This document shows, in pieces, positions 42,044-55,595 of a DNA stretch of 64,000 bases. Source of the stretch: Candidatus Magasanikiibacteriota bacterium. GTDB taxonomy: Bacteria; Patescibacteriota; Patescibacteriia; Magasanikbacterales; GWA2-37-8. Positions within the stretch are counted from its first letter, which is position 1. Every line of letters starts with the position of its first letter. The notes beneath the pieces are model-generated. The model saw only the letters and a program-made list of their open reading frames with translations. It was not told the origin of the DNA and did not search any database. Position numbers and translations under genes: made by a program. The stretch covers positions 29,144 to 93,143 of the forward strand of contig JAUSEN010000009.1 of NCBI GenBank assembly GCA_030650025.1. The letters run 5' to 3'.

Positions 42044-42128
42044 ACGTAGAGACGTTGCACTGCAACGTCTCTTTGCACTGCAACGTCTCTTTGCACTGCA
42101 ACGTCTCTTTGCACTGCAACGTCTCTTT
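42044..42128. repeat. REP family-1 array: four tandem 18-nt units forming GAGACGTTGCA-c-TGCAACGTCTC hairpins.
   Basis: cacgtagagacgttgcactgcaacgtctctttgcactgcaacgtctcttt..., immediately 5' of the RAYT-1 start. Confidence 0.8.
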
Positions 42129-42135
42129 AAAAATT

Positions 42136-42780
42136 ATGATAGAAAAATTTAAAAATAAATATCGAATACCATCGGCACGTTTGCCTGATTGGGATTACAG
42201 CAATGCCGGTTTATATTTTGTAACAATTTGCACAAAAAATAGATTTTGTTATTTTGGCGATATTATTAAAAATAAGATGTGGTTATCTAAAATGGGTAAA
42301 ATTGCACAGCAATATTGGTCGGAAATTCCCAATCATTTTTCACATGTCTATCTGGATGAATATGTAATAATGCCTAATCATATTCACGGTATTATCAGAA
42401 TCACGGAAAACAATGTAAATCATAATCACGTAGAGACGTTGCACTGCAACGTCTCTTTGCACTGCAACGTCTCCGAAACAACATCGCCAAAAACGCCAGA
42501 GACGTTGCACTGCAACGTCTCTACGCAAACGATGATGCAGAAATCGCTAATGTCAAAAATTTCGCCTCGGACTGGTTCGCTAGGCACCATTATTCGTTCG
42601 TTTAAATCAATTTTTACCAGAACAATCAATCAAGACCCTACATTGCAATATTTTGGTTGGCAAGAACGCTACTACGAATCGATCATCCGCGATCAAAAAT
42701 CTCTGGAACACATTCGCGGATACATTCGTGATAATCCAAAGAATTGGGAAAAAGATGAATTATTCCCGCATATTAAATAA
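42136..42780 (+). CDS. IS200/IS605-family Y1 (HuH) transposase, REP-associated (RAYT-1)
   Basis: DWDYSNAGLYFVTICTKNR and HuH YVIMPNHIHGII, with YY in ...FGWQERYYESIIRD... at the presumptive catalytic Tyr. Start refined to MIEKF...; the first 27 tool-ORF codons are REP translation. Confidence 0.7.
   Translation: MIEKFKNKYRIPSARLPDWDYSNAGLYFVTICTKNRFCYFGDIIKNKMWLSKMGKIAQQYWSEIPNHFSHVYLDEYVIMPNHIHGIIRITENNVNHNHVETLHCNVSLHCNVSETTSPKTPETLHCNVSTQTMMQKSLMSKISPRTGSLGTIIRSFKSIFTRTINQDPTLQYFGWQERYYESIIRDQKSLEHIRGYIRDNPKNWEKDELFPHIK
42428..42523 (+). repeat. REP family-1 copies (2.5 units) inserted in-frame inside RAYT-1.
   Basis: cgtagagacgttgcactgcaacgtctctttgcactgcaacgtctcc ... cagagacgttgcactgcaacgtctcta, encoding ETLHCNVSLHCNVS...ETLHCNVST. 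Confidence 0.75.
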
Positions 42781-50979: not shown

Positions 50980-51729
50980 ATGGGATCGAGGAATCTGAAG
51001 AGTGGAAGCCTGGTTCTCCAGGAGGACGTCAGGAAGGACTTCCGCGGGTCGGAAGGCATGCTGGAGCTCCTCATGACCGTTCTCACCGGTCTCCTGACGG
51101 GAACCGTGATCATCCGCTACATGGACCGGGTGAAGGGTGGCCCCGGACATCAGAGCCAGGTGCGAGCCGTCCGGTTCGATAACGTTCGCCACCAGATCAT
51201 CCTGACGGCCCAGCCGGGCGACAACAAGACCCACTGGCGGCTGTCACTCACTCTGGCGCGAACAACCGACTTAAGCAAGGTGTACGCCGCGCTCGTCGCA
51301 AGGCTCGGTGTTACTCCGGCAGAAGTAGTCGGTAACAACGGCTCACCGGGCGACCAAGCCGCTCTGCGCGTCGAGCTGGCGCGGCTCGAACAGCTTCATG
51401 GCGAGCAGAAGGCCGAGCATGATCGTCATCAGGCGGCCGAAGCCGAGCGCGCAGTTCAGCGTGAGGGGCTCGTAAATGATCGCAGGGCGCTCGAAGAGCT
51501 CATCGTCGAGGTCGACGAGGAGAGTCGGCGCGCCACTGCCGCCCGGGCCGCGGCCGAAGAAGCCCTCGAACAGACCGAGCTTGAGCTCGACGAGGTCAGG
51601 GACAAGCTCGAGGCCATCAGGAAGAAGGCCGATGCCCTCGCTGCCGCGCGTCAGCTCCTGGCCGAGGCCAACCTCGACCTCGCTGACCCGGGCGTGCTCG
51701 CGGCCCTGCGCGGAGAGCCGGCCAAGTAG
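50980..51729 (+). CDS. hypothetical TM plus coiled-coil protein (high-GC island D)
   Basis: 249 aa with TM LLMTVLTGLLTGTVII and a long Ala/Glu/Arg-rich coiled coil. The gene is about 68% GC, and the composition switch falls within about 15 nt of the start codon. Confidence 0.4.
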   Translation: MGSRNLKSGSLVLQEDVRKDFRGSEGMLELLMTVLTGLLTGTVIIRYMDRVKGGPGHQSQVRAVRFDNVRHQIILTAQPGDNKTHWRLSLTLARTTDLSKVYAALVARLGVTPAEVVGNNGSPGDQAALRVELARLEQLHGEQKAEHDRHQAAEAERAVQREGLVNDRRALEELIVEVDEESRRATAARAAAEEALEQTELELDEVRDKLEAIRKKADALAAARQLLAEANLDLADPGVLAALRGEPAK

Positions 51730-51765
51730 GGTTCCGCCACCCCAACGTACTTCCATTTCCAACCC

Positions 51766-51790
51766 CTGCCGGTCCCGAGGCGACCGGCAG
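51766..51790 (+). terminator. GC-rich hairpin terminator of the island D gene
   Basis: ctgccggtc-ccgaggc-gaccggcag. Confidence 0.55.
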
Positions 51791-52104
51791 TACTCACAAA
51801 ACATCACTATTCAAGTGGTGTTTTTTGATGCCACAGATTTTGAAATACAAATAATTGACAAAATTTAGCATTTTTAGTACTCTTAAATTAAGACGTTTTG
51901 CCCATTATCGACGGGCAGAGCTCGTCCGCCGCGGCGGGCGGGATCGCGTTAAGAGCAGAAATCCTGCGACCATCAGTCGTTGGAGAGTAGACCTCTTCGG
52001 GAATGCCCGTTACAGCTCAAAATTAAGCGAAAGCACAAGATGGTACCGTCCAGTCATTCGACCGGACTCTTGGCACGAATATTTTCGTGTTTTTTTATTG
52101 AAAA

Positions 52105-52518
52105 TTAGCAATGAGCAACTAACAATTAACAAGTGAGTATGAACGAAAAGCAGAATCCGTTGTTTGTAAAGGCAGATTTATTGGCAAAAGAGGCATATCA
52201 AATTGCCCAAAAATTTCCTAAACATGAGATGTACGGGCTAACGTCTCAATTGAGACGTGCGGGATTGTCGGTTATTCTAAATATTGTTGAAGGTTTTGCC
52301 AGGCAGAGCAAAGCTGAATTTCGTAGGTTTTTAATAATATCCTTTGGCTCATTAAAAGAAACAAAATATTTATTGAATTTTGCCAAAGAACAAAAATATT
52401 TAACAGATAAAAAATACAGCGAGGTTTTAGGAATGACGGAGGAAGTAGCTCGCATATTATGGTCATCAATAAAGTCTCTAAAATAGGTTTGTTAATTGTT
52501 CATTGCTAATTGTTAATT
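52105..52518 (+). mobile_element. Small TIR-flanked insertion (IVS-like element) carrying a four-helix-bundle gene, inserted at the ileS start.
   Basis: Left TIR attagcaatgagcaactaacaattaacaa. Right TIR ttgttaattgttcattgctaattgttaatt is its near-perfect reverse complement. Confidence 0.55.
52133..52486 (+). CDS. four-helix-bundle protein (23S rRNA intervening-sequence protein family)
   Basis: 117 aa of all-helical pattern with PKHEMYGLTSQLRRAGLSVILNIVEGFAR, typical of the PF05635/TIGR02436 family. Confidence 0.65.
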   Translation: MSMNEKQNPLFVKADLLAKEAYQIAQKFPKHEMYGLTSQLRRAGLSVILNIVEGFARQSKAEFRRFLIISFGSLKETKYLLNFAKEQKYLTDKKYSEVLGMTEEVARILWSSIKSLK

Positions 52519-52523
52519 CGTGT

Positions 52524-55500
52524 ATGTACGACGCCAATTCCGAAGAACAAAAAATTTTAGAATTCTGGGAAAAGGACAAAACGTTTGCCAAATCCGTCAA
52601 TGAACGTCCGGAAAATAAGCCCTATGTCTTTTACGACGGCCCGCCGTTTGCCACGGGCCTCCCGCACTACGGGCATATTTTAGCGTCCGTTATTAAAGAC
52701 GTGGTGCCGCGCTACTTTACTATGAAGGGGTTTAGCGTGCGCCGCCGTTGGGGGTGGGATTGCCACGGCCTCCCAATTGAAAGCCTCGTTGAAAAAGAAC
52801 TAAATATTTCCGGTAAAAAAGACATCGCGGATAAATTAGGCGTTGATAAATTTAACAACGCTTGTCGTTCTAAAGTTTTGCAGTATACCGAGGAGTGGAA
52901 AAAGATGGTGGCGCGCGTGGGCCGCTGGGTGGAATTTGATAATTCGTATAAAACCATGGATCCCACCTATATGGAGAGTGTCTGGTGGGCCCTCAAAACC
53001 ATTTGGGATAAAAATTTAATTTACGAAGGCCGCAAAGTTTTAATGTACTGCCCGCACTGCGAAACGCCAGTCAGTAAAGCCGAAATCGCCATGGACAACA
53101 GCTATAAAGATATTACCGAAGAAGCGGTAACGGCACGGTTTAAAGTAATTGAACCAGCTAAGCATGGTCTGCCTAAAAATTCTTTTATTTTGGCCTGGAC
53201 TACCACTCCGTGGACACTACCGGGCAATGTGGCGCTCGCGGTCGGCGAAAAAATACTTTATTCGGCCGTAGAGTTAAACGGTGAAGTTTTAATTGTGGCG
53301 GACGATTTGGTTGAGAAAATTTTTGTCGGGCAACCTGCCCGCAATGCTGCGCATAGCGCTGCAGGCGGGGAGTTTAAAAAAATAAAATCATTTCCCGGCA
53401 ACAGTTTAGTTGGCATTAAATACGAGCCGCTTTTTGATATGCCGGCTATGCGAGAGGCCGAGAGTAAAAAAGTTTACGAAGTGGTAGCCGCTGATTTTGT
53501 GAATACCGATGAGGGCACCGGCGTGGTGCACACGGCCGTAGTGTATGGCGAAGATGATTATAATTTGGGAATGGCCGAGGGGCTCCCAGCCGTGCCCATG
53601 TTAAATGATAAGGGTGAGTATAATAAAGTCGCTCCCGCCTTCCTGCAGGGCAAGTTTATTAAACAAGCCGAAAAAGAAATTAAAAAATATTTAGATGAAA
53701 AAGGGTTTTTATTTGCTAAAAATCAGAACACACATTCGTATCCACACTGCTGGCGTTGTGATACGCCGCTTATTTATAACGCTATTTCGGCCTGGTTTAT
53801 TAATATCCAAACCATTAAACCGCGTTTAATAGAATTAAACGAAAAAATTAATTGGTACCCCGAGCACCTAAAACATGGCCGTTTTAAAAATATTTTAGAA
53901 ACCGCGCCGGATTGGAACATCTCCCGCAACCGCTATTGGGCCACGCCCCTGCCGTTTTGGAAGTGTGCAAATCAAGAAAGCAAAAAAACAAAAAAACAAA
54001 AAAACAATTCCCAGTGCGACAATGTGGTGTGTGTGGGGAGTGTAGCGGAGTTGAAAGAGAAGGCAATTAATTTCTCCGAGGTTTTTTCTTCTGATAAAGT
54101 TGTCGAATTGGATTTGCACAAACACATCGTGGATAAAATTAAATTAAAATGCGATCAGTGCGGCGGTAGTATGGAGCGCATTCCAGAAGTGATTGATTGC
54201 TGGGTAGAATCGGGGAGCATGCCTTTTGCCGAATATCATTACCCGTTTGAAAACAAAGCCGTCTTTCACAAACGTTTTCCCGGGCAATACATTGCCGAAT
54301 ACATTAACCAAACTCGGGCTTGGTTTTATTATATGCATGCCATGGCGGGGTTACTTTTTGATAGCAACAGTTTTGAAAATTGCGTTACCACCGGCGAAAT
54401 TCAAAACGAAAAAGGCGAGAAATTGTCTAAATCAAAGAAAAATTATCCGGACCCTTGGATTATCATAGAAAAGTACGGCGTTGACGCTCTGCGTTATTAT
54501 TTAATGACCAGCCCGGTGATGGAAGCGGAAAATTTATTATTTAACGAGCGCGAAATACGCGAAATTTACAACAAGGTCGTCAACATTTTATGGAACGTGG
54601 TAGAGTTTTATAAATTGTACGCGTCCGAAAGTCCATGGTCCGAAGTCCCTGCCTCACCGGCAGGCAGGCAGGGTCCAGAGTCTAAACATGTTTTAGACCA
54701 GTGGATTCTCGCTAAGCTCCAAATTCTAGTCAAAGAAGCAACCGAACAAATGGACATTTACAATACCGTCAAAGCCGCCCGGCCGATCCGCGAATTTATT
54801 GATGAGTTATCCACCTGGTACGTGCGCCGCTCGCGCGATCGGTTTAAGAGTGAGAACAAGGCAGACCAGGCCGCGGCCCTTGCGACTCTAAAGTTAGTAT
54901 TAGAGACACTGGCTAAACTTATGGCTCCGTTTACTCCGTTTCTTGCCGAGAAAATCTGGTACATCGTAACTGGCGCAAAAACGAGCGTGCATTTGGAGAT
55001 GTGGCCGGTAGTAGACGAAAAATATTTAAACACAGAACTTATCGGGTCAATGTCGACTGTCCGTAAACTAATTGAAACGGCTCTCTCATTGCGCGCCGAG
55101 CATAAAATTAAGGTAAGACAACCACTGGCCTCGTTACAATTTTTTGGGTTTACGCCCTCAAAGATTATCGGCACATCTGAGTGGTATAAAATAATGGAAG
55201 AAGAGTTGAATGTAAAGAAAGTTTCTTCTCTAGAAATGGAAAGTGGTGATTATAGCAATGTTTCGCCGGGTGAAAACAAGGTAATGAAGGAAGCTGACGG
55301 AGTCAAAGTGATATTAGATATTAATATTACCCCCGAGCTTAAACAAGAAGGCCTGACGCGCGAAATTATCCGCACTATCAACCAGATGCGCAAAGAACAA
55401 AAACTTACTATTCAAGATGAAGTGATAGTAAAATATGCGACCGAAGACGCCCTGCTTAAAAAAGTTTTGGCTAATTTTAGCCAAGAAATTTTACGCGCCA

Positions 55501-55595
55501 CCTTAGCCAAAAAAATTATTGAAAGTCCGGAAGCTAGCCAAAAAATCGCTATTGATGGCGCGGAAATAAATTTTTCAGTGGAAAAAAACGGTTGA
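52524..55595 (+). CDS. ileS: isoleucyl-tRNA synthetase (type 2, eukaryote/archaeal-like)
   Basis: HIGH region PHYGHIL, GWDCHGLPIE, KMSKS as KLSKSKKN, and a CP1 editing domain. Start set at MYDANSEEQ...; the first 7 tool-ORF codons lie in the element's right TIR. Confidence 0.85.
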   Translation: MYDANSEEQKILEFWEKDKTFAKSVNERPENKPYVFYDGPPFATGLPHYGHILASVIKDVVPRYFTMKGFSVRRRWGWDCHGLPIESLVEKELNISGKKDIADKLGVDKFNNACRSKVLQYTEEWKKMVARVGRWVEFDNSYKTMDPTYMESVWWALKTIWDKNLIYEGRKVLMYCPHCETPVSKAEIAMDNSYKDITEEAVTARFKVIEPAKHGLPKNSFILAWTTTPWTLPGNVALAVGEKILYSAVELNGEVLIVADDLVEKIFVGQPARNAAHSAAGGEFKKIKSFPGNSLVGIKYEPLFDMPAMREAESKKVYEVVAADFVNTDEGTGVVHTAVVYGEDDYNLGMAEGLPAVPMLNDKGEYNKVAPAFLQGKFIKQAEKEIKKYLDEKGFLFAKNQNTHSYPHCWRCDTPLIYNAISAWFINIQTIKPRLIELNEKINWYPEHLKHGRFKNILETAPDWNISRNRYWATPLPFWKCANQESKKTKKQKNNSQCDNVVCVGSVAELKEKAINFSEVFSSDKVVELDLHKHIVDKIKLKCDQCGGSMERIPEVIDCWVESGSMPFAEYHYPFENKAVFHKRFPGQYIAEYINQTRAWFYYMHAMAGLLFDSNSFENCVTTGEIQNEKGEKLSKSKKNYPDPWIIIEKYGVDALRYYLMTSPVMEAENLLFNEREIREIYNKVVNILWNVVEFYKLYASESPWSEVPASPAGRQGPESKHVLDQWILAKLQILVKEATEQMDIYNTVKAARPIREFIDELSTWYVRRSRDRFKSENKADQAAALATLKLVLETLAKLMAPFTPFLAEKIWYIVTGAKTSVHLEMWPVVDEKYLNTELIGSMSTVRKLIETALSLRAEHKIKVRQPLASLQFFGFTPSKIIGTSEWYKIMEEELNVKKVSSLEMESGDYSNVSPGENKVMKEADGVKVILDINITPELKQEGLTREIIRTINQMRKEQKLTIQDEVIVKYATEDALLKKVLANFSQEILRATLAKKIIESPEASQKIAIDGAEINFSVEKNG

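What the first reader, a model, noticed from the sequence alone, without database searches (positions are those of the whole stretch)
52105..52518. TIR-flanked mini-element carrying a four-helix-bundle (IVS-family) gene inserted exactly at the ileS translation start
Near-perfect 29-bp terminal inverted repeats (52105-52133 and 52489-52518) bracket a 117-aa four-helix-bundle gene. This family normally sits in rRNA intervening sequences. The right repeat lies 5 nt from the ileS ATG, so the apparent ileS N-terminus in the ORF track is repeat-derived. The element probably supplies the ileS promoter or leader. An unusual GC-rich segment with palindromes (CCGCCGCGGCGG) lies just upstream at 51870-52100 and may be part of the same unit or another RNA.
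Basis: seen in the sequence. Interest (0 to 1): 0.55.

Follow-up and report, generated by a model that had tools for sequence, protein, structure and literature searches.

The report
rRNA-type intervening cassette in ileS leader
A small gene bracketed by inverted 7-base repeats, built like the intervening sequences that interrupt ribosomal RNA genes, instead sits in a messenger RNA leader, between an isoleucine-sensing T-box riboswitch and the isoleucyl-tRNA synthetase gene it controls.

Summary
Arms 52103-52132 and 52489-52518 are 26/30 complementary. Each is a tandem array of 7-nt units. They enclose an intact 115-aa four-helix-bundle gene (PF05635/TIGR02436). The true ileS start is ATG 52524, so the seven residues upstream in the ORF track are arm-derived.

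The GC-rich segment upstream is not part of the element. It is an atypical Ile T-box leader (AUC specifier in a short Stem I loop, UGGUACC bulge, terminator) that Rfam misses. A profile built from relatives finds it at E=9.5e-26. This leader, not the element, supplies the promoter and regulation.

Five other loci of Magasanikbacteria-like candidate phyla radiation (CPR) bacteria carry a four-helix-bundle cassette at the same T-box/ileS junction, with three arm sequence classes. Four relatives have ORF-less hairpins there, and one site is empty.

About 68 of 79 homologous loci show the same heptamer-repeat arms, mostly between co-directional protein genes. No rRNA was found in the 13 loci scanned. 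The anatomy matches the Coxiella 23S IVS, which RNase III excises.

Best reading: an IVS-type cassette carried in an mRNA leader. RNase III processing is inferred, not shown. I rate it a new variant of a known kind.

The parts
51855..51887 (+). Putative promoter of the ileS leader. The -35 is TTGACA at 51855-51860, followed by a 17-nt spacer and a weak -10 (TACTCT).
   Evidence: A TTGACA/TTGACT hexamer lies at the equivalent position in L161, L097, L003, L010, L011 and L019. The site is below the threshold of the promoter scan. This assignment is an inference.
51888..52098 (+). Atypical Ile-specific T-box leader. Stem I is 51899-51917, with specifier AUC at 51907-51909 followed by a purine. 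A lineage-specific GC hairpin occupies 51922-51941. Stem II follows, then Stem IIA (CGGG/CCCG, 51998-52009) with an F-box-like CCGUUA at 52007-52012. Helix A1 is CAAGA 52036-52040 paired with UCUUG 52068-52072. The 7-nt bulge UGGUACC is at 52041-52047, and helix A2 at 52048-52067. The terminator hairpin is 52072-52091, followed by a U-run at 52092-52098.
   Evidence: The fold has z=-3.3 and a terminator is called. Alignment with seven relatives shows compensatory changes in Stems I and II. An nhmmer profile built without the window hits 51945-52098 at E=9.5e-26, the only hit in the window. The Rfam T-box model gives no hit.
52103..52132 (+). Left arm of the cassette, made of 4.3 tandem heptamers (AATTAGC AATGAGC AACTAAC AATTAAC AA).
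52139..52486 (+). Four-helix-bundle (S23p / 23S rRNA IVS protein family) gene, 115 aa and intact.
   Evidence: PF05635 at 2.7e-32 and TIGR02436 at 111.6 bits. The Avd equivalog model scores 32 bits against an 80-bit cut-off. The closest solved structure is 2GSC, XCC0516. The identical protein is on record as P0001. dN/dS is below 0.4 against syntenic copies, but dS is saturated.
52489..52518 (+). Right arm of the cassette, made of 4.3 tandem heptamers (TTGTTAA TTGTTCA TTGCTAA TTGTTAA TT). It ends 5 nt before the ileS ATG.
52524..55595 (+). ileS (isoleucyl-tRNA synthetase). The true start is MYDANSEEQ.
   Evidence: Pfam tRNA-synt_1, Anticodon_1 and DUF5915. Orthologue N-termini agree.

Best explanation
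This is an IVS-type cassette: a four-helix-bundle (S23p-family) ORF that exactly fills the loop of a stem of about 27-30 bp. The stem is formed by two inverted arrays of 7-nt repeats. The cassette is lodged in the transcribed spacer between an Ile-specific T-box riboswitch and the ileS start codon, not in 23S rRNA.

Proposed mechanism. (1) The leader promoter fires, and uncharged tRNA-Ile lets transcription read through the T-box terminator. The structure is shown; the function is inferred. (2) The cassette is co-transcribed with ileS. It is on the same strand and no terminator lies between them. This step is inferred. (3) The arms pair, bringing the end of the leader next to the ileS AUG. By analogy with the Coxiella and Leptospira 23S IVSs, RNase III cuts within the stem. 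That would release the four-helix-bundle mRNA and leave ileS mRNA with a short AU-rich leader lacking a Shine-Dalgarno sequence, similar to the spacer at the empty site in L010. This step is inferred and not tested. Excision at the RNA level would make the insertion tolerable, so the cassette can persist in any transcribed non-coding spacer, decay to an ORF-less hairpin, or be lost.

How the cassette spreads at the DNA level, and what the protein does, remain unknown.
For: Anatomy. The arms are period-7 arrays, the ORF is PF05635/TIGR02436, and the arms pair in the MFE and centroid folds. The Coxiella 23S IVS has the same design: an S23p ORF, a 28-bp stem from terminal inverted repeats, tandem heptamers (GACAGAT) and RNase III cleavage in mid-stem (PMC4990558).

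Generality. About 68 of the 79 scorable metagenome loci with homologues have arms hugging the ORF at z>4. Arm self-identity is 0.72 at shift 7 against 0.27-0.41 at other shifts, and 61 of 66 arms have a best period of 7. Arm sequences differ between loci but stay complementary. Two of the three cyanobacterial plasmid copies checked (Calothrix, Nostoc edaphicum) also have heptamer arms.

Context. The cassettes lie in tight spacers between genes. The downstream gene is co-directional in 46 loci against 7. Neighbours are unrelated to one another: dnaJ, an ECF sigma/DUF5667 pair, T4SS genes, aaRS genes and tmRNA.

Same site. T-box, cassette, then ileS occurs in the window, L161, L097, L092, L094 and L115. 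Three arm classes are represented. L094 has an in-frame stop. ORF-less hairpins occupy the site in L003, L009 and L011 (z from -6 to -10) and L019 (z=-2.2). L010 is empty.

The leader is independent of the cassette.
Against: No RNA data exist, so RNase III cleavage rests only on analogy, and no rnc gene is visible in this 64-kb window. Non-Watson-Crick positions in the arms show no excess of G.U over A.C (98 against 113). Complementarity is therefore not demonstrably selected on the sense RNA and could be maintained at the DNA level. The window and L161 share exact 16-17-nt blocks in their arms although synonymous sites of the ORF are saturated. That points to constraint on the arm sequence itself, which a pure 'any stem will do' model does not predict. 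The ORF appears to be under purifying selection and has been kept at this site in divergent genomes, which fits a host-beneficial role at least as well as a selfish one. The cassette is not in rRNA, so it fails the defining location of an IVS.
Confidence: 0.6

Rival explanations
1. It is a DNA transposon or MITE-like mini-element. The 30-bp arms are terminal inverted repeats bound by a transposase supplied in trans, and the element inserted by cut-and-paste at the ileS start.
For: Occupancy of the site is polymorphic among relatives. L161 carries a second, ORF-less copy of the same arm pair 300 nt upstream. L115 has a relic W-type heptamer tract against the ATG plus a different cassette. The window protein's nearest relatives (65-72% identity) sit at non-orthologous sites. 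The symmetry of G.U and A.C mismatches is compatible with complementarity at the DNA level.
Against: No target-site duplication is visible at the arm borders in the window, L161, L097 or L092. Arm sequences are not conserved across the family and are internally tandem heptamers. No transposase is associated, and the four-helix-bundle fold has no known catalytic motif. There is only one copy in 64 kb. The 17-mer search of viral contigs found no cassette.
Confidence: 0.15
2. It is a domesticated host module. The stem plus ORF is a regulatory device for ileS. The right arm sequesters the ileS initiation region, and translation of the four-helix-bundle ORF (stop codon 2 nt before the arm) opens it. 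Alternatively, the protein has a translation-related or RNA-related function linked to ileS.
For: The cassette is retained at the same junction in six divergent genomes (IleRS 52-76% identical), with an intact ORF in at least four; L094 carries an in-frame stop and the start of the L115 copy could not be placed in frame. dN/dS is low where it can be computed. The right arm or heptamer tract ends a few nt (0-5 in most of the six loci) before the ileS ATG. In the AAGGAAT arm class, the left arm carries AAGGAG upstream of the ORF start and the right arm carries its complement.
Against: Close relatives manage with an ORF-less hairpin or nothing (L003, L009, L010, L011, L019). L094 has a stop inside the ORF. 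Homologous cassettes precede many unrelated genes. In Saccharibacteria, ordinary unrelated genes occupy the same T-box/ileS interval, which suggests a permissive site rather than a dedicated device.
Confidence: 0.17
3. It is the accessory variability determinant (Avd) of a diversity-generating retroelement.
For: There are weak matches to bAvd (PF22296, 39.6 bits), phrog_3206 'Avd protein of DGR' (9.7e-12) and NF033474 (32 bits).
Against: The match is below the curated cut-offs (40 bits for PF22296, 80 bits for NF033474). No reverse transcriptase is among the called neighbours within about 5 kb. No template/variable repeat pair appears in 51700-52700. The strong matches are to the IVS-protein families.
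Confidence: 0.03
4. The inverted repeat is a chance or low-complexity artefact flanking an ordinary small gene.
For: The arms are AT-rich and of low complexity.
Against: The arm match has z=11 against shuffles. The same design recurs in about 68 of 79 homologous loci and in Coxiella and cyanobacteria.
Confidence: 0.01

Closest known systems
23S rRNA intervening sequences carrying an S23p ORF (Coxiella burnetii, Leptospira; PMC4990558)
   Same: The protein family is the same (PF05635/TIGR02436). The size is the same, about 415-430 nt. The ORF fills the loop of a 28-30-bp stem made by terminal inverted repeats, and the arms are built from tandem heptamers.
   Different: It is located in an mRNA leader, between a riboswitch terminator and a start codon, not in helix 45 or 25 of 23S rRNA. 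RNase III excision is untested here. The ORF appears to be under purifying selection, whereas the Coxiella ORF is reported as decaying and untranslated.
ileS T-box riboswitches with ultrashort Stem I (actinobacterial translational class; reviewed in PMC7583486)
   Same: The upstream leader has the specifier AUC plus a purine in the terminal loop of a short Stem I. It has a Stem II, a Stem IIA with an F-box-like CCGUUA, a 7-nt UGGUACC bulge between helices A1 and A2, and sits upstream of ileS.
   Different: It ends in an intrinsic-terminator-like hairpin plus U-run rather than a Shine-Dalgarno sequestrator. The terminator overlaps the antiterminator by only about 3 nt. Rfam RF00230 does not detect it. 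It occurs in CPR bacteria. A cassette of more than 400 nt separates it from the regulated ORF.
Cyanobacterial STRR heptanucleotide repeats (named from my own knowledge: Mazel et al. 1990)
   Same: Tandem 7-nt units occur in intergenic DNA. Four-helix-bundle genes on Calothrix and Nostoc plasmids are flanked by inverted heptamer arrays of this kind.
   Different: As far as I know, STRRs are described as repeats without a defined cargo. I found no paper in the held library that links them to four-helix-bundle genes.
MITEs and other terminal-inverted-repeat mini-transposons
   Same: It is a short element bounded by inverted repeats, with presence/absence polymorphism and ORF-less derivatives.
   Different: There is no target-site duplication, no conserved terminal sequence and no cognate transposase. 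The arms are tandem heptamers that co-vary.
RNase III cleavage of the Staphylococcus aureus met-leader T-box RNA (PMC7913692, abstract seen)
   Same: It is a precedent for RNase III acting on a T-box leader transcript and setting downstream mRNA fate.
   Different: There the cut is in the riboswitch itself, with no inserted ORF cassette.
DGR Avd proteins
   Same: The protein is distantly homologous, with the same four-helix-bundle fold.
   Different: It scores below the equivalog cut-off, and there is no reverse transcriptase or template repeat nearby.

Membership tests
rRNA intervening sequence (IVS) with S23p ORF | Encodes an S23p / 23S_rRNA_IVP four-helix-bundle protein | tested here: met
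   PF05635 at 111.6 bits (cut-off 33.8) and TIGR02436 at 111.6 bits (cut-off 24).
rRNA intervening sequence (IVS) with S23p ORF | Terminal complementary sequences form a long stem that encloses the ORF | tested here: met
   The arms are 30 nt each, and 27 pairs form in the MFE and centroid folds.
rRNA intervening sequence (IVS) with S23p ORF | Tandem heptameric repeats in the terminal region, as in Coxiella | tested here: met
   TRF finds period 7 with 4.3 copies in both arms.
rRNA intervening sequence (IVS) with S23p ORF | Inserted within a 23S (or 16S) rRNA gene | tested here: not met
   There is no rRNA in the window at Rfam gathering thresholds. The element lies between a T-box leader and ileS.
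rRNA intervening sequence (IVS) with S23p ORF | Excised from the precursor RNA by RNase III | not testable with these tools
   This needs RNA end mapping or an in vitro cleavage assay.
T-box riboswitch (for the upstream segment 51888-52098) | Match to the curated covariance model Rfam RF00230 | tested here: not met
   There is no hit even at E<=10 on 226 nt, nor at gathering threshold in L161 or L097.
T-box riboswitch (for the upstream segment 51888-52098) | Specifier codon matching the regulated aaRS, followed by a purine, displayed in Stem I | tested here: met
   AUC plus A or G lies in the Stem I loop in the window, L161, L097, L003, L009, L010, L011 and L019. Stem I shows compensatory changes.
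T-box riboswitch (for the upstream segment 51888-52098) | 7-nt T-box bulge UGGN... between helices A1 and A2, with N matching the tRNA discriminator base | tested here: met
   UGGUACC at 52041-52047 is invariant in the alignment and is flanked by CAAGA/UCUUG and an A2 hairpin. The U would pair with discriminator A73 of tRNA-Ile; that pairing rests on established knowledge, not on a test here.
T-box riboswitch (for the upstream segment 51888-52098) | Stem II plus Stem IIA/B element with F-box | tested here: met
   The Stem II pairs show compensatory changes. CGGG/CCCG and CCGU(U/A)A are conserved. The F-box definition comes from PMC7583486.
T-box riboswitch (for the upstream segment 51888-52098) | Mutually exclusive terminator and antiterminator | tested here: inconclusive
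   A terminator hairpin plus U-run is present. It overlaps the antiterminator 3' strand by only about 3 nt, and both structures form in the MFE fold.
TIR transposon / MITE | Target-site duplication flanking the inverted repeats | tested here: not met
   No direct repeat is seen at the arm borders in four loci, by inspection.
TIR transposon / MITE | Multiple copies with conserved terminal sequence | tested here: inconclusive
   There is one copy in 64 kb and two arm pairs in L161. Arm sequences vary across the family. The whole genome was not available.
DGR accessory protein Avd | Passes the Avd equivalog model and lies next to a reverse transcriptase with TR/VR repeats | tested here: not met
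   NF033474 scores 32 bits against an 80-bit cut-off. The neighbours are rpiB, an unknown ORF and ileS.

The most novel reading that the evidence does not exclude
Four-helix-bundle genes with inverted heptamer-repeat arms may form one widespread class of 'RNA-excisable' passenger cassettes. Members would colonise any transcribed spacer: rRNA helices, tmRNA flanks, operon junctions, and here a riboswitch/ORF junction. They were seen here in CPR bacteria and Cyanobacteria, and in Coxiella from the literature. The classical rRNA IVS would be only the best-known special case. The conserved heptamer units (RCA at 7-nt spacing in 51 of 66 arms) would be recognition sites for the encoded pentameric protein or for the machinery that copies the cassette. 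The cyanobacterial STRR repeats would be their footprints.
Probability: 0.25. Interest if true: 0.8.

Novelty: new variant of a known kind. Interest (0 to 1): 0.6.

Why it matters
Bacterial intervening sequences have been known for more than 30 years, almost only as oddities of rRNA genes, and their origin, mobility and encoded protein remain unexplained. This locus shows the same cassette design living inside an mRNA leader, between a riboswitch and the gene it controls. The cassette is kept at that site across deeply diverged CPR genomes, and intact, pseudogenised, ORF-less and empty states are all sampled. That gives a natural series for asking how such cassettes arrive, decay and affect expression. 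It also suggests that 'IVS' is a property of a cassette family rather than of rRNA. As a by-product, the locus exposes an Ile T-box variant that the Rfam model misses. It combines an ultrashort Stem I with an intrinsic terminator and is widespread upstream of ileS in Magasanikbacteria and Saccharibacteria. I found no report of T-boxes in these phyla in the held library.

Tried and rejected
- Rfam on the whole window at gathering threshold, and on 51700-52620 and 51880-52105 at E<=10, gave only chance-level hits and no T-box.
- ARAGORN found no tRNA or tmRNA in the window.
- A search for the arm in the window with up to 3 mismatches found only itself.
- The exact 17-mer of the arm in viral contigs gave 20 hits. 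None carried a four-helix-bundle gene. Some were solitary heptamer tracts and one was an ORF-less hairpin (L181). This was uninformative about mobility.
- The G.U versus A.C mismatch test for sense-RNA selection on the arms showed no bias, 98 against 113.
- Correlating four-helix-bundle and IleRS divergence to separate vertical from horizontal history failed. There were too few clean pairs, because L094 is a pseudogene and my reading frame for the L115 copy broke after 15 residues (a frameshift or a different start). The result, r=-0.11, is not interpretable.
- dN/dS: dS is saturated, so only a rough statement of purifying selection is possible.
- The DGR reading was rejected on sub-threshold scores and the absence of a reverse transcriptase.
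- PADLOC gave no defence-system match for the protein.
- A motif search for RNase III in the window's ORFs found nothing. The window is only part of the genome.
- Literature searches found no paper on T-boxes in Patescibacteria/CPR. Only the Coxiella paper linked heptamer repeats with IVS proteins. The library is incomplete, so absence is weak evidence.

Full report
OBSERVATION. The inverted repeat exists as described. The arms are 52103-52132 and 52489-52518, 30 nt each, 87% complementary, 356 nt apart. The pair scores z=11 against shuffled flanks, and the arm sequence occurs nowhere else in the 64-kb window. In an RNA fold of 52092-52535 the two arms pair with each other in both the MFE and the centroid structure, giving 27 pairs. 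Tandem Repeats Finder independently reports each arm as 4.3 copies of a 7-nt unit, AATTAAC and TTGTTAA. The ORF between them is 52139-52486, 115 aa. It starts 6 nt after the left arm and stops 2 nt before the right arm. It is a full-length member of PF05635 (23S rRNA IVS protein, 2.7e-32) and TIGR02436 (four helix bundle protein, 111.6 bits). It scores far below the cut-off of the DGR Avd equivalog model. Its closest solved relative is XCC0516, PDB 2GSC.

THE ileS START. The mechanical ORF begins at TTG 52503, inside the right arm. IleRS orthologues from Candidatus Magasanikbacteria MAGs are 63% identical or less in the best tblastn segment, or 66-74% over the first 800 residues in my own pairwise alignment. 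They begin MYNAN..., aligned with MYDANSEEQ at ATG 52524, and their upstream DNA is unrelated.

THE UPSTREAM 'GC-RICH SEGMENT' IS A T-BOX LEADER. Segment 51888-52098 folds significantly (z=-3.3) and ends in a terminator hairpin (52072-52091) plus a U-run. It has the following features.
- A short hairpin (51899-51917) whose loop displays AUC followed by a purine.
- A Stem II, then CGGG-loop-CCCG followed by CCGUUA, which is F-box-like.
- The helix CAAGA/UCUUG, interrupted by the 7-nt bulge UGGUACC and an inner hairpin. This is the A1-bulge-A2 architecture of a T-box discriminator as described in PMC7583486.

The same leader lies upstream of ileS in L003, L009, L010, L011, L019, L161 and L097. 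AUC and UGGUACC are invariant there, and Stems I and II show compensatory changes. A sequence profile built from those seven loci, without the window, finds window 51945-52098 at E=9.5e-26 as its only hit. It also finds leaders upstream of ileS in about 28 Saccharibacteria loci.

Rfam's T-box model does not detect the leader at any threshold. This is consistent with TBDB needing a separate model for T-boxes with truncated Stem I. The CCGCCGCGGCGG palindrome is a lineage-specific hairpin (51922-51941) inserted between Stem I and Stem II. L009, L011 and L097 carry other insertions at that point.

One feature is unresolved. The terminator overlaps the antiterminator by only about 3 nt, so how the switch works is unclear.

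A conserved TTGACA (51855-51860) precedes the leader. The promoter and regulatory leader of ileS therefore lie upstream of the cassette and do not depend on it.

THE SAME JUNCTION IN RELATIVES. Five further loci have T-box, then left arm, four-helix-bundle gene and right arm, then the ileS ATG.
- L161: protein 60% identical, arms of the same AAYTARC type, right arm ending 3 nt before the ATG.
- L097, L092 and L094: arms of AAGGAAT type.
- L115: arms of GATTARC type, plus a relic W-type heptamer tract directly against the ATG.

L094's copy has an in-frame stop. L161 also has an ORF-less hairpin with the same arm sequence upstream of the leader promoter.

At the same position, L003 and L009 carry ORF-less hairpins built from heptamers (z=-9.7 and -6.2). 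L011 carries a non-heptamer hairpin (z=-8.5) and L019 a weak one. L010 has only 20 nt between the U-run and the ATG, and so serves as an empty site.

IleRS of the window is closer to the ORF-less and empty genomes (70-72%) than to L161 or L097 (52-55%). The occupied state is therefore scattered over the tree. That pattern fits an old insertion with repeated decay and loss, or repeated insertion into a permissive site. In Saccharibacteria the same interval often holds ordinary unrelated genes such as GNAT, HAD, cupin-like and CYTH. This favours a permissive site over a dedicated target.

THE CASSETTE DESIGN IS GENERAL. The protein has more than 470 homologues. Of 79 metagenome loci with scorable flanks (44-72% identity), about 68 have significant inverted repeats (z>4) hugging the ORF. 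The arm sequences differ from locus to locus (AACAATT, AACGAAC, AACAGAT, AACATGG, AAGGAAT and others) but remain complementary. They share a 7-nt period: identity is 0.72 at shift 7 against 0.27-0.41 at other shifts, and 61 of 66 arms have a best period of 7. RCA recurs at 7-nt spacing in 51 of 66 arms.

The cassettes sit in tight spacers between genes. The downstream gene is co-directional in 46 of 53 cases. Neighbours are unrelated to one another: dnaJ, an ECF sigma factor with a DUF5667 protein, type IV secretion ATPases, other aaRS genes, UDP-glucose dehydrogenase and a tmRNA gene. None of the 13 loci scanned contained rRNA.

Two of three cyanobacterial plasmid copies inspected also have inverted heptamer arrays, GGGTGTA in Calothrix and TAGGGAG in Nostoc edaphicum. 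The Nostoc copy is oriented against its neighbours.

COMPARISON WITH THE KNOWN IVS. The Coxiella burnetii 23S rRNA IVS is a 428-nt element with an S23p ORF, a 28-bp stem formed by terminal inverted repeats, and tandem GACAGAT heptamers upstream of the ORF. [quoted passage not shown] The element here matches in protein family, size, stem length, ORF-in-loop layout and heptamer construction. It differs in the defining location, mRNA leader against rRNA. It cannot be filed as an rRNA IVS, but it very probably works like one.

MECHANISM AND ITS LIMITS. Shown: the anatomy, the family, the independent T-box leader, the occupied/relic/empty series, and the generality of heptamer arms. Inferred: co-transcription with ileS after T-box read-through; stem formation in vivo; RNase III cleavage that releases the four-helix-bundle mRNA and leaves ileS with a short AU-rich leader like the one at the empty site.

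Three results cut against a simple RNA-stem model.
- Arm mismatches show no G.U over A.C bias, 98 against 113.
- The window and L161 share exact 16-17-nt arm blocks although synonymous sites are saturated.
- The ORF appears to be under purifying selection.

These leave room for recognition of the heptamers as sequence, at the DNA level or by a protein, and for a host-beneficial role. The classical TIR-transposon reading is weakened by the lack of target duplications, of conserved termini and of any transposase. Avd/DGR and chance are effectively excluded.

NOVELTY. Four-helix-bundle genes outside rRNA are known from annotation. The IVS design is known from rRNA. The held literature yielded only the Coxiella paper linking heptamer repeats to these ORFs, and nothing on such cassettes in mRNA leaders or on T-boxes in CPR bacteria. 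That library is incomplete. I rate this a new variant of a known kind, of moderate to good interest.

Noticed in passing
window 42045-42780: REP-like palindromes (AGAGACGTTGCACTGCAACGTCTCT; 18-nt unit x4.1 at 42055-42128, and again at 42439-42473 and 42498-42525) precede and interrupt an ORF with a Y1_Tnp (IS200-like/RAYT) domain (PF01797, 8.3e-7). This looks like a REP/RAYT-type system, with repeats lying inside the mechanical ORF.
   Followed up: partly
window 50980-51800: A 62-70% GC island in a 47% GC window holds a 249-aa ORF with no Pfam or NCBIfam family, directly upstream of the ileS leader promoter. It is also present in an independent Logan assembly (L182). GC-rich stretches occupy the equivalent position in L161, L010 and L001, but without detectable protein homology.
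   Followed up: partly
window 51888-52098; L003, L009, L010, L011, L019, L097, L161; about 28 Saccharibacteria loci (e.g. L035 3778-3942): An Ile T-box variant with an ultrashort Stem I plus an intrinsic-terminator-like hairpin is widespread upstream of ileS in CPR bacteria and invisible to Rfam RF00230. Its terminator barely overlaps the antiterminator. It is absent from some close relatives, for example L008, whose IleRS is 91% identical to that of L010.
   Followed up: partly
L002 3165-4001; L074 2805-4001; L033, L034, L048, L056, L065, L073: In several CPR genomes, unrelated co-directional genes (GNAT acetyltransferase, HAD hydrolase, cupin-like, CYTH and unknown ORFs) lie between the T-box leader and ileS. 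The junction is a variable, permissive slot.
   Followed up: partly
L115 690-850: After a cassette with GATTARC-type arms there is a GC hairpin, then a relic heptamer tract of the window's type (ATTGCTAGTTGTTAATTGTTAATTGTTT) ending directly at the ileS ATG. This suggests successive occupancy of the site.
   Followed up: no
L094 2501-2836: The four-helix-bundle copy at the T-box/ileS junction has an in-frame stop after codon 36 while its arms are intact. It is a likely intermediate towards the ORF-less hairpins.
   Followed up: no
L082 2039-2860 (also L083, L084): A four-helix-bundle cassette lies directly downstream of, and co-directional with, a tmRNA gene (Rfam RF00023, 140.6 bits).
   Followed up: no
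L184 (Calothrix plasmid) 1330-1930; L185 (Nostoc edaphicum plasmid) 1340-1930: Cyanobacterial four-helix-bundle genes are flanked by inverted arrays of GGGTGTA or TAGGGAG heptamers, which look like the STRR heptanucleotide repeats of heterocystous cyanobacteria. In L185 the cassette sits between two ribonucleotide reductase genes on the opposite strand.
   Followed up: partly
L174 2700-2800; L175 7350-7410; L166, L169, L179; L181 5137-5244: Viral contigs contain tracts of the same heptamer variants (AATTAGC/AATGAGC/AATTAAC) without a four-helix-bundle gene. L181 has an ORF-less hairpin of this type.
   Followed up: partly
L097 2470-2500, L092 1075-1105, L094 2465-2500: In the AAGGAAT arm class, the left arm contains AAGGAG a few to about 30 nt upstream of the four-helix-bundle start codon and the right arm contains its complement. 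Arm pairing would therefore mask a Shine-Dalgarno-like sequence.
   Followed up: no
window 53969-54007: An A-rich 8-nt tandem repeat (AAAACAAA x4.9) lies inside ileS and encodes a lysine-rich low-complexity insertion (KKTKKQKNN).
   Followed up: no
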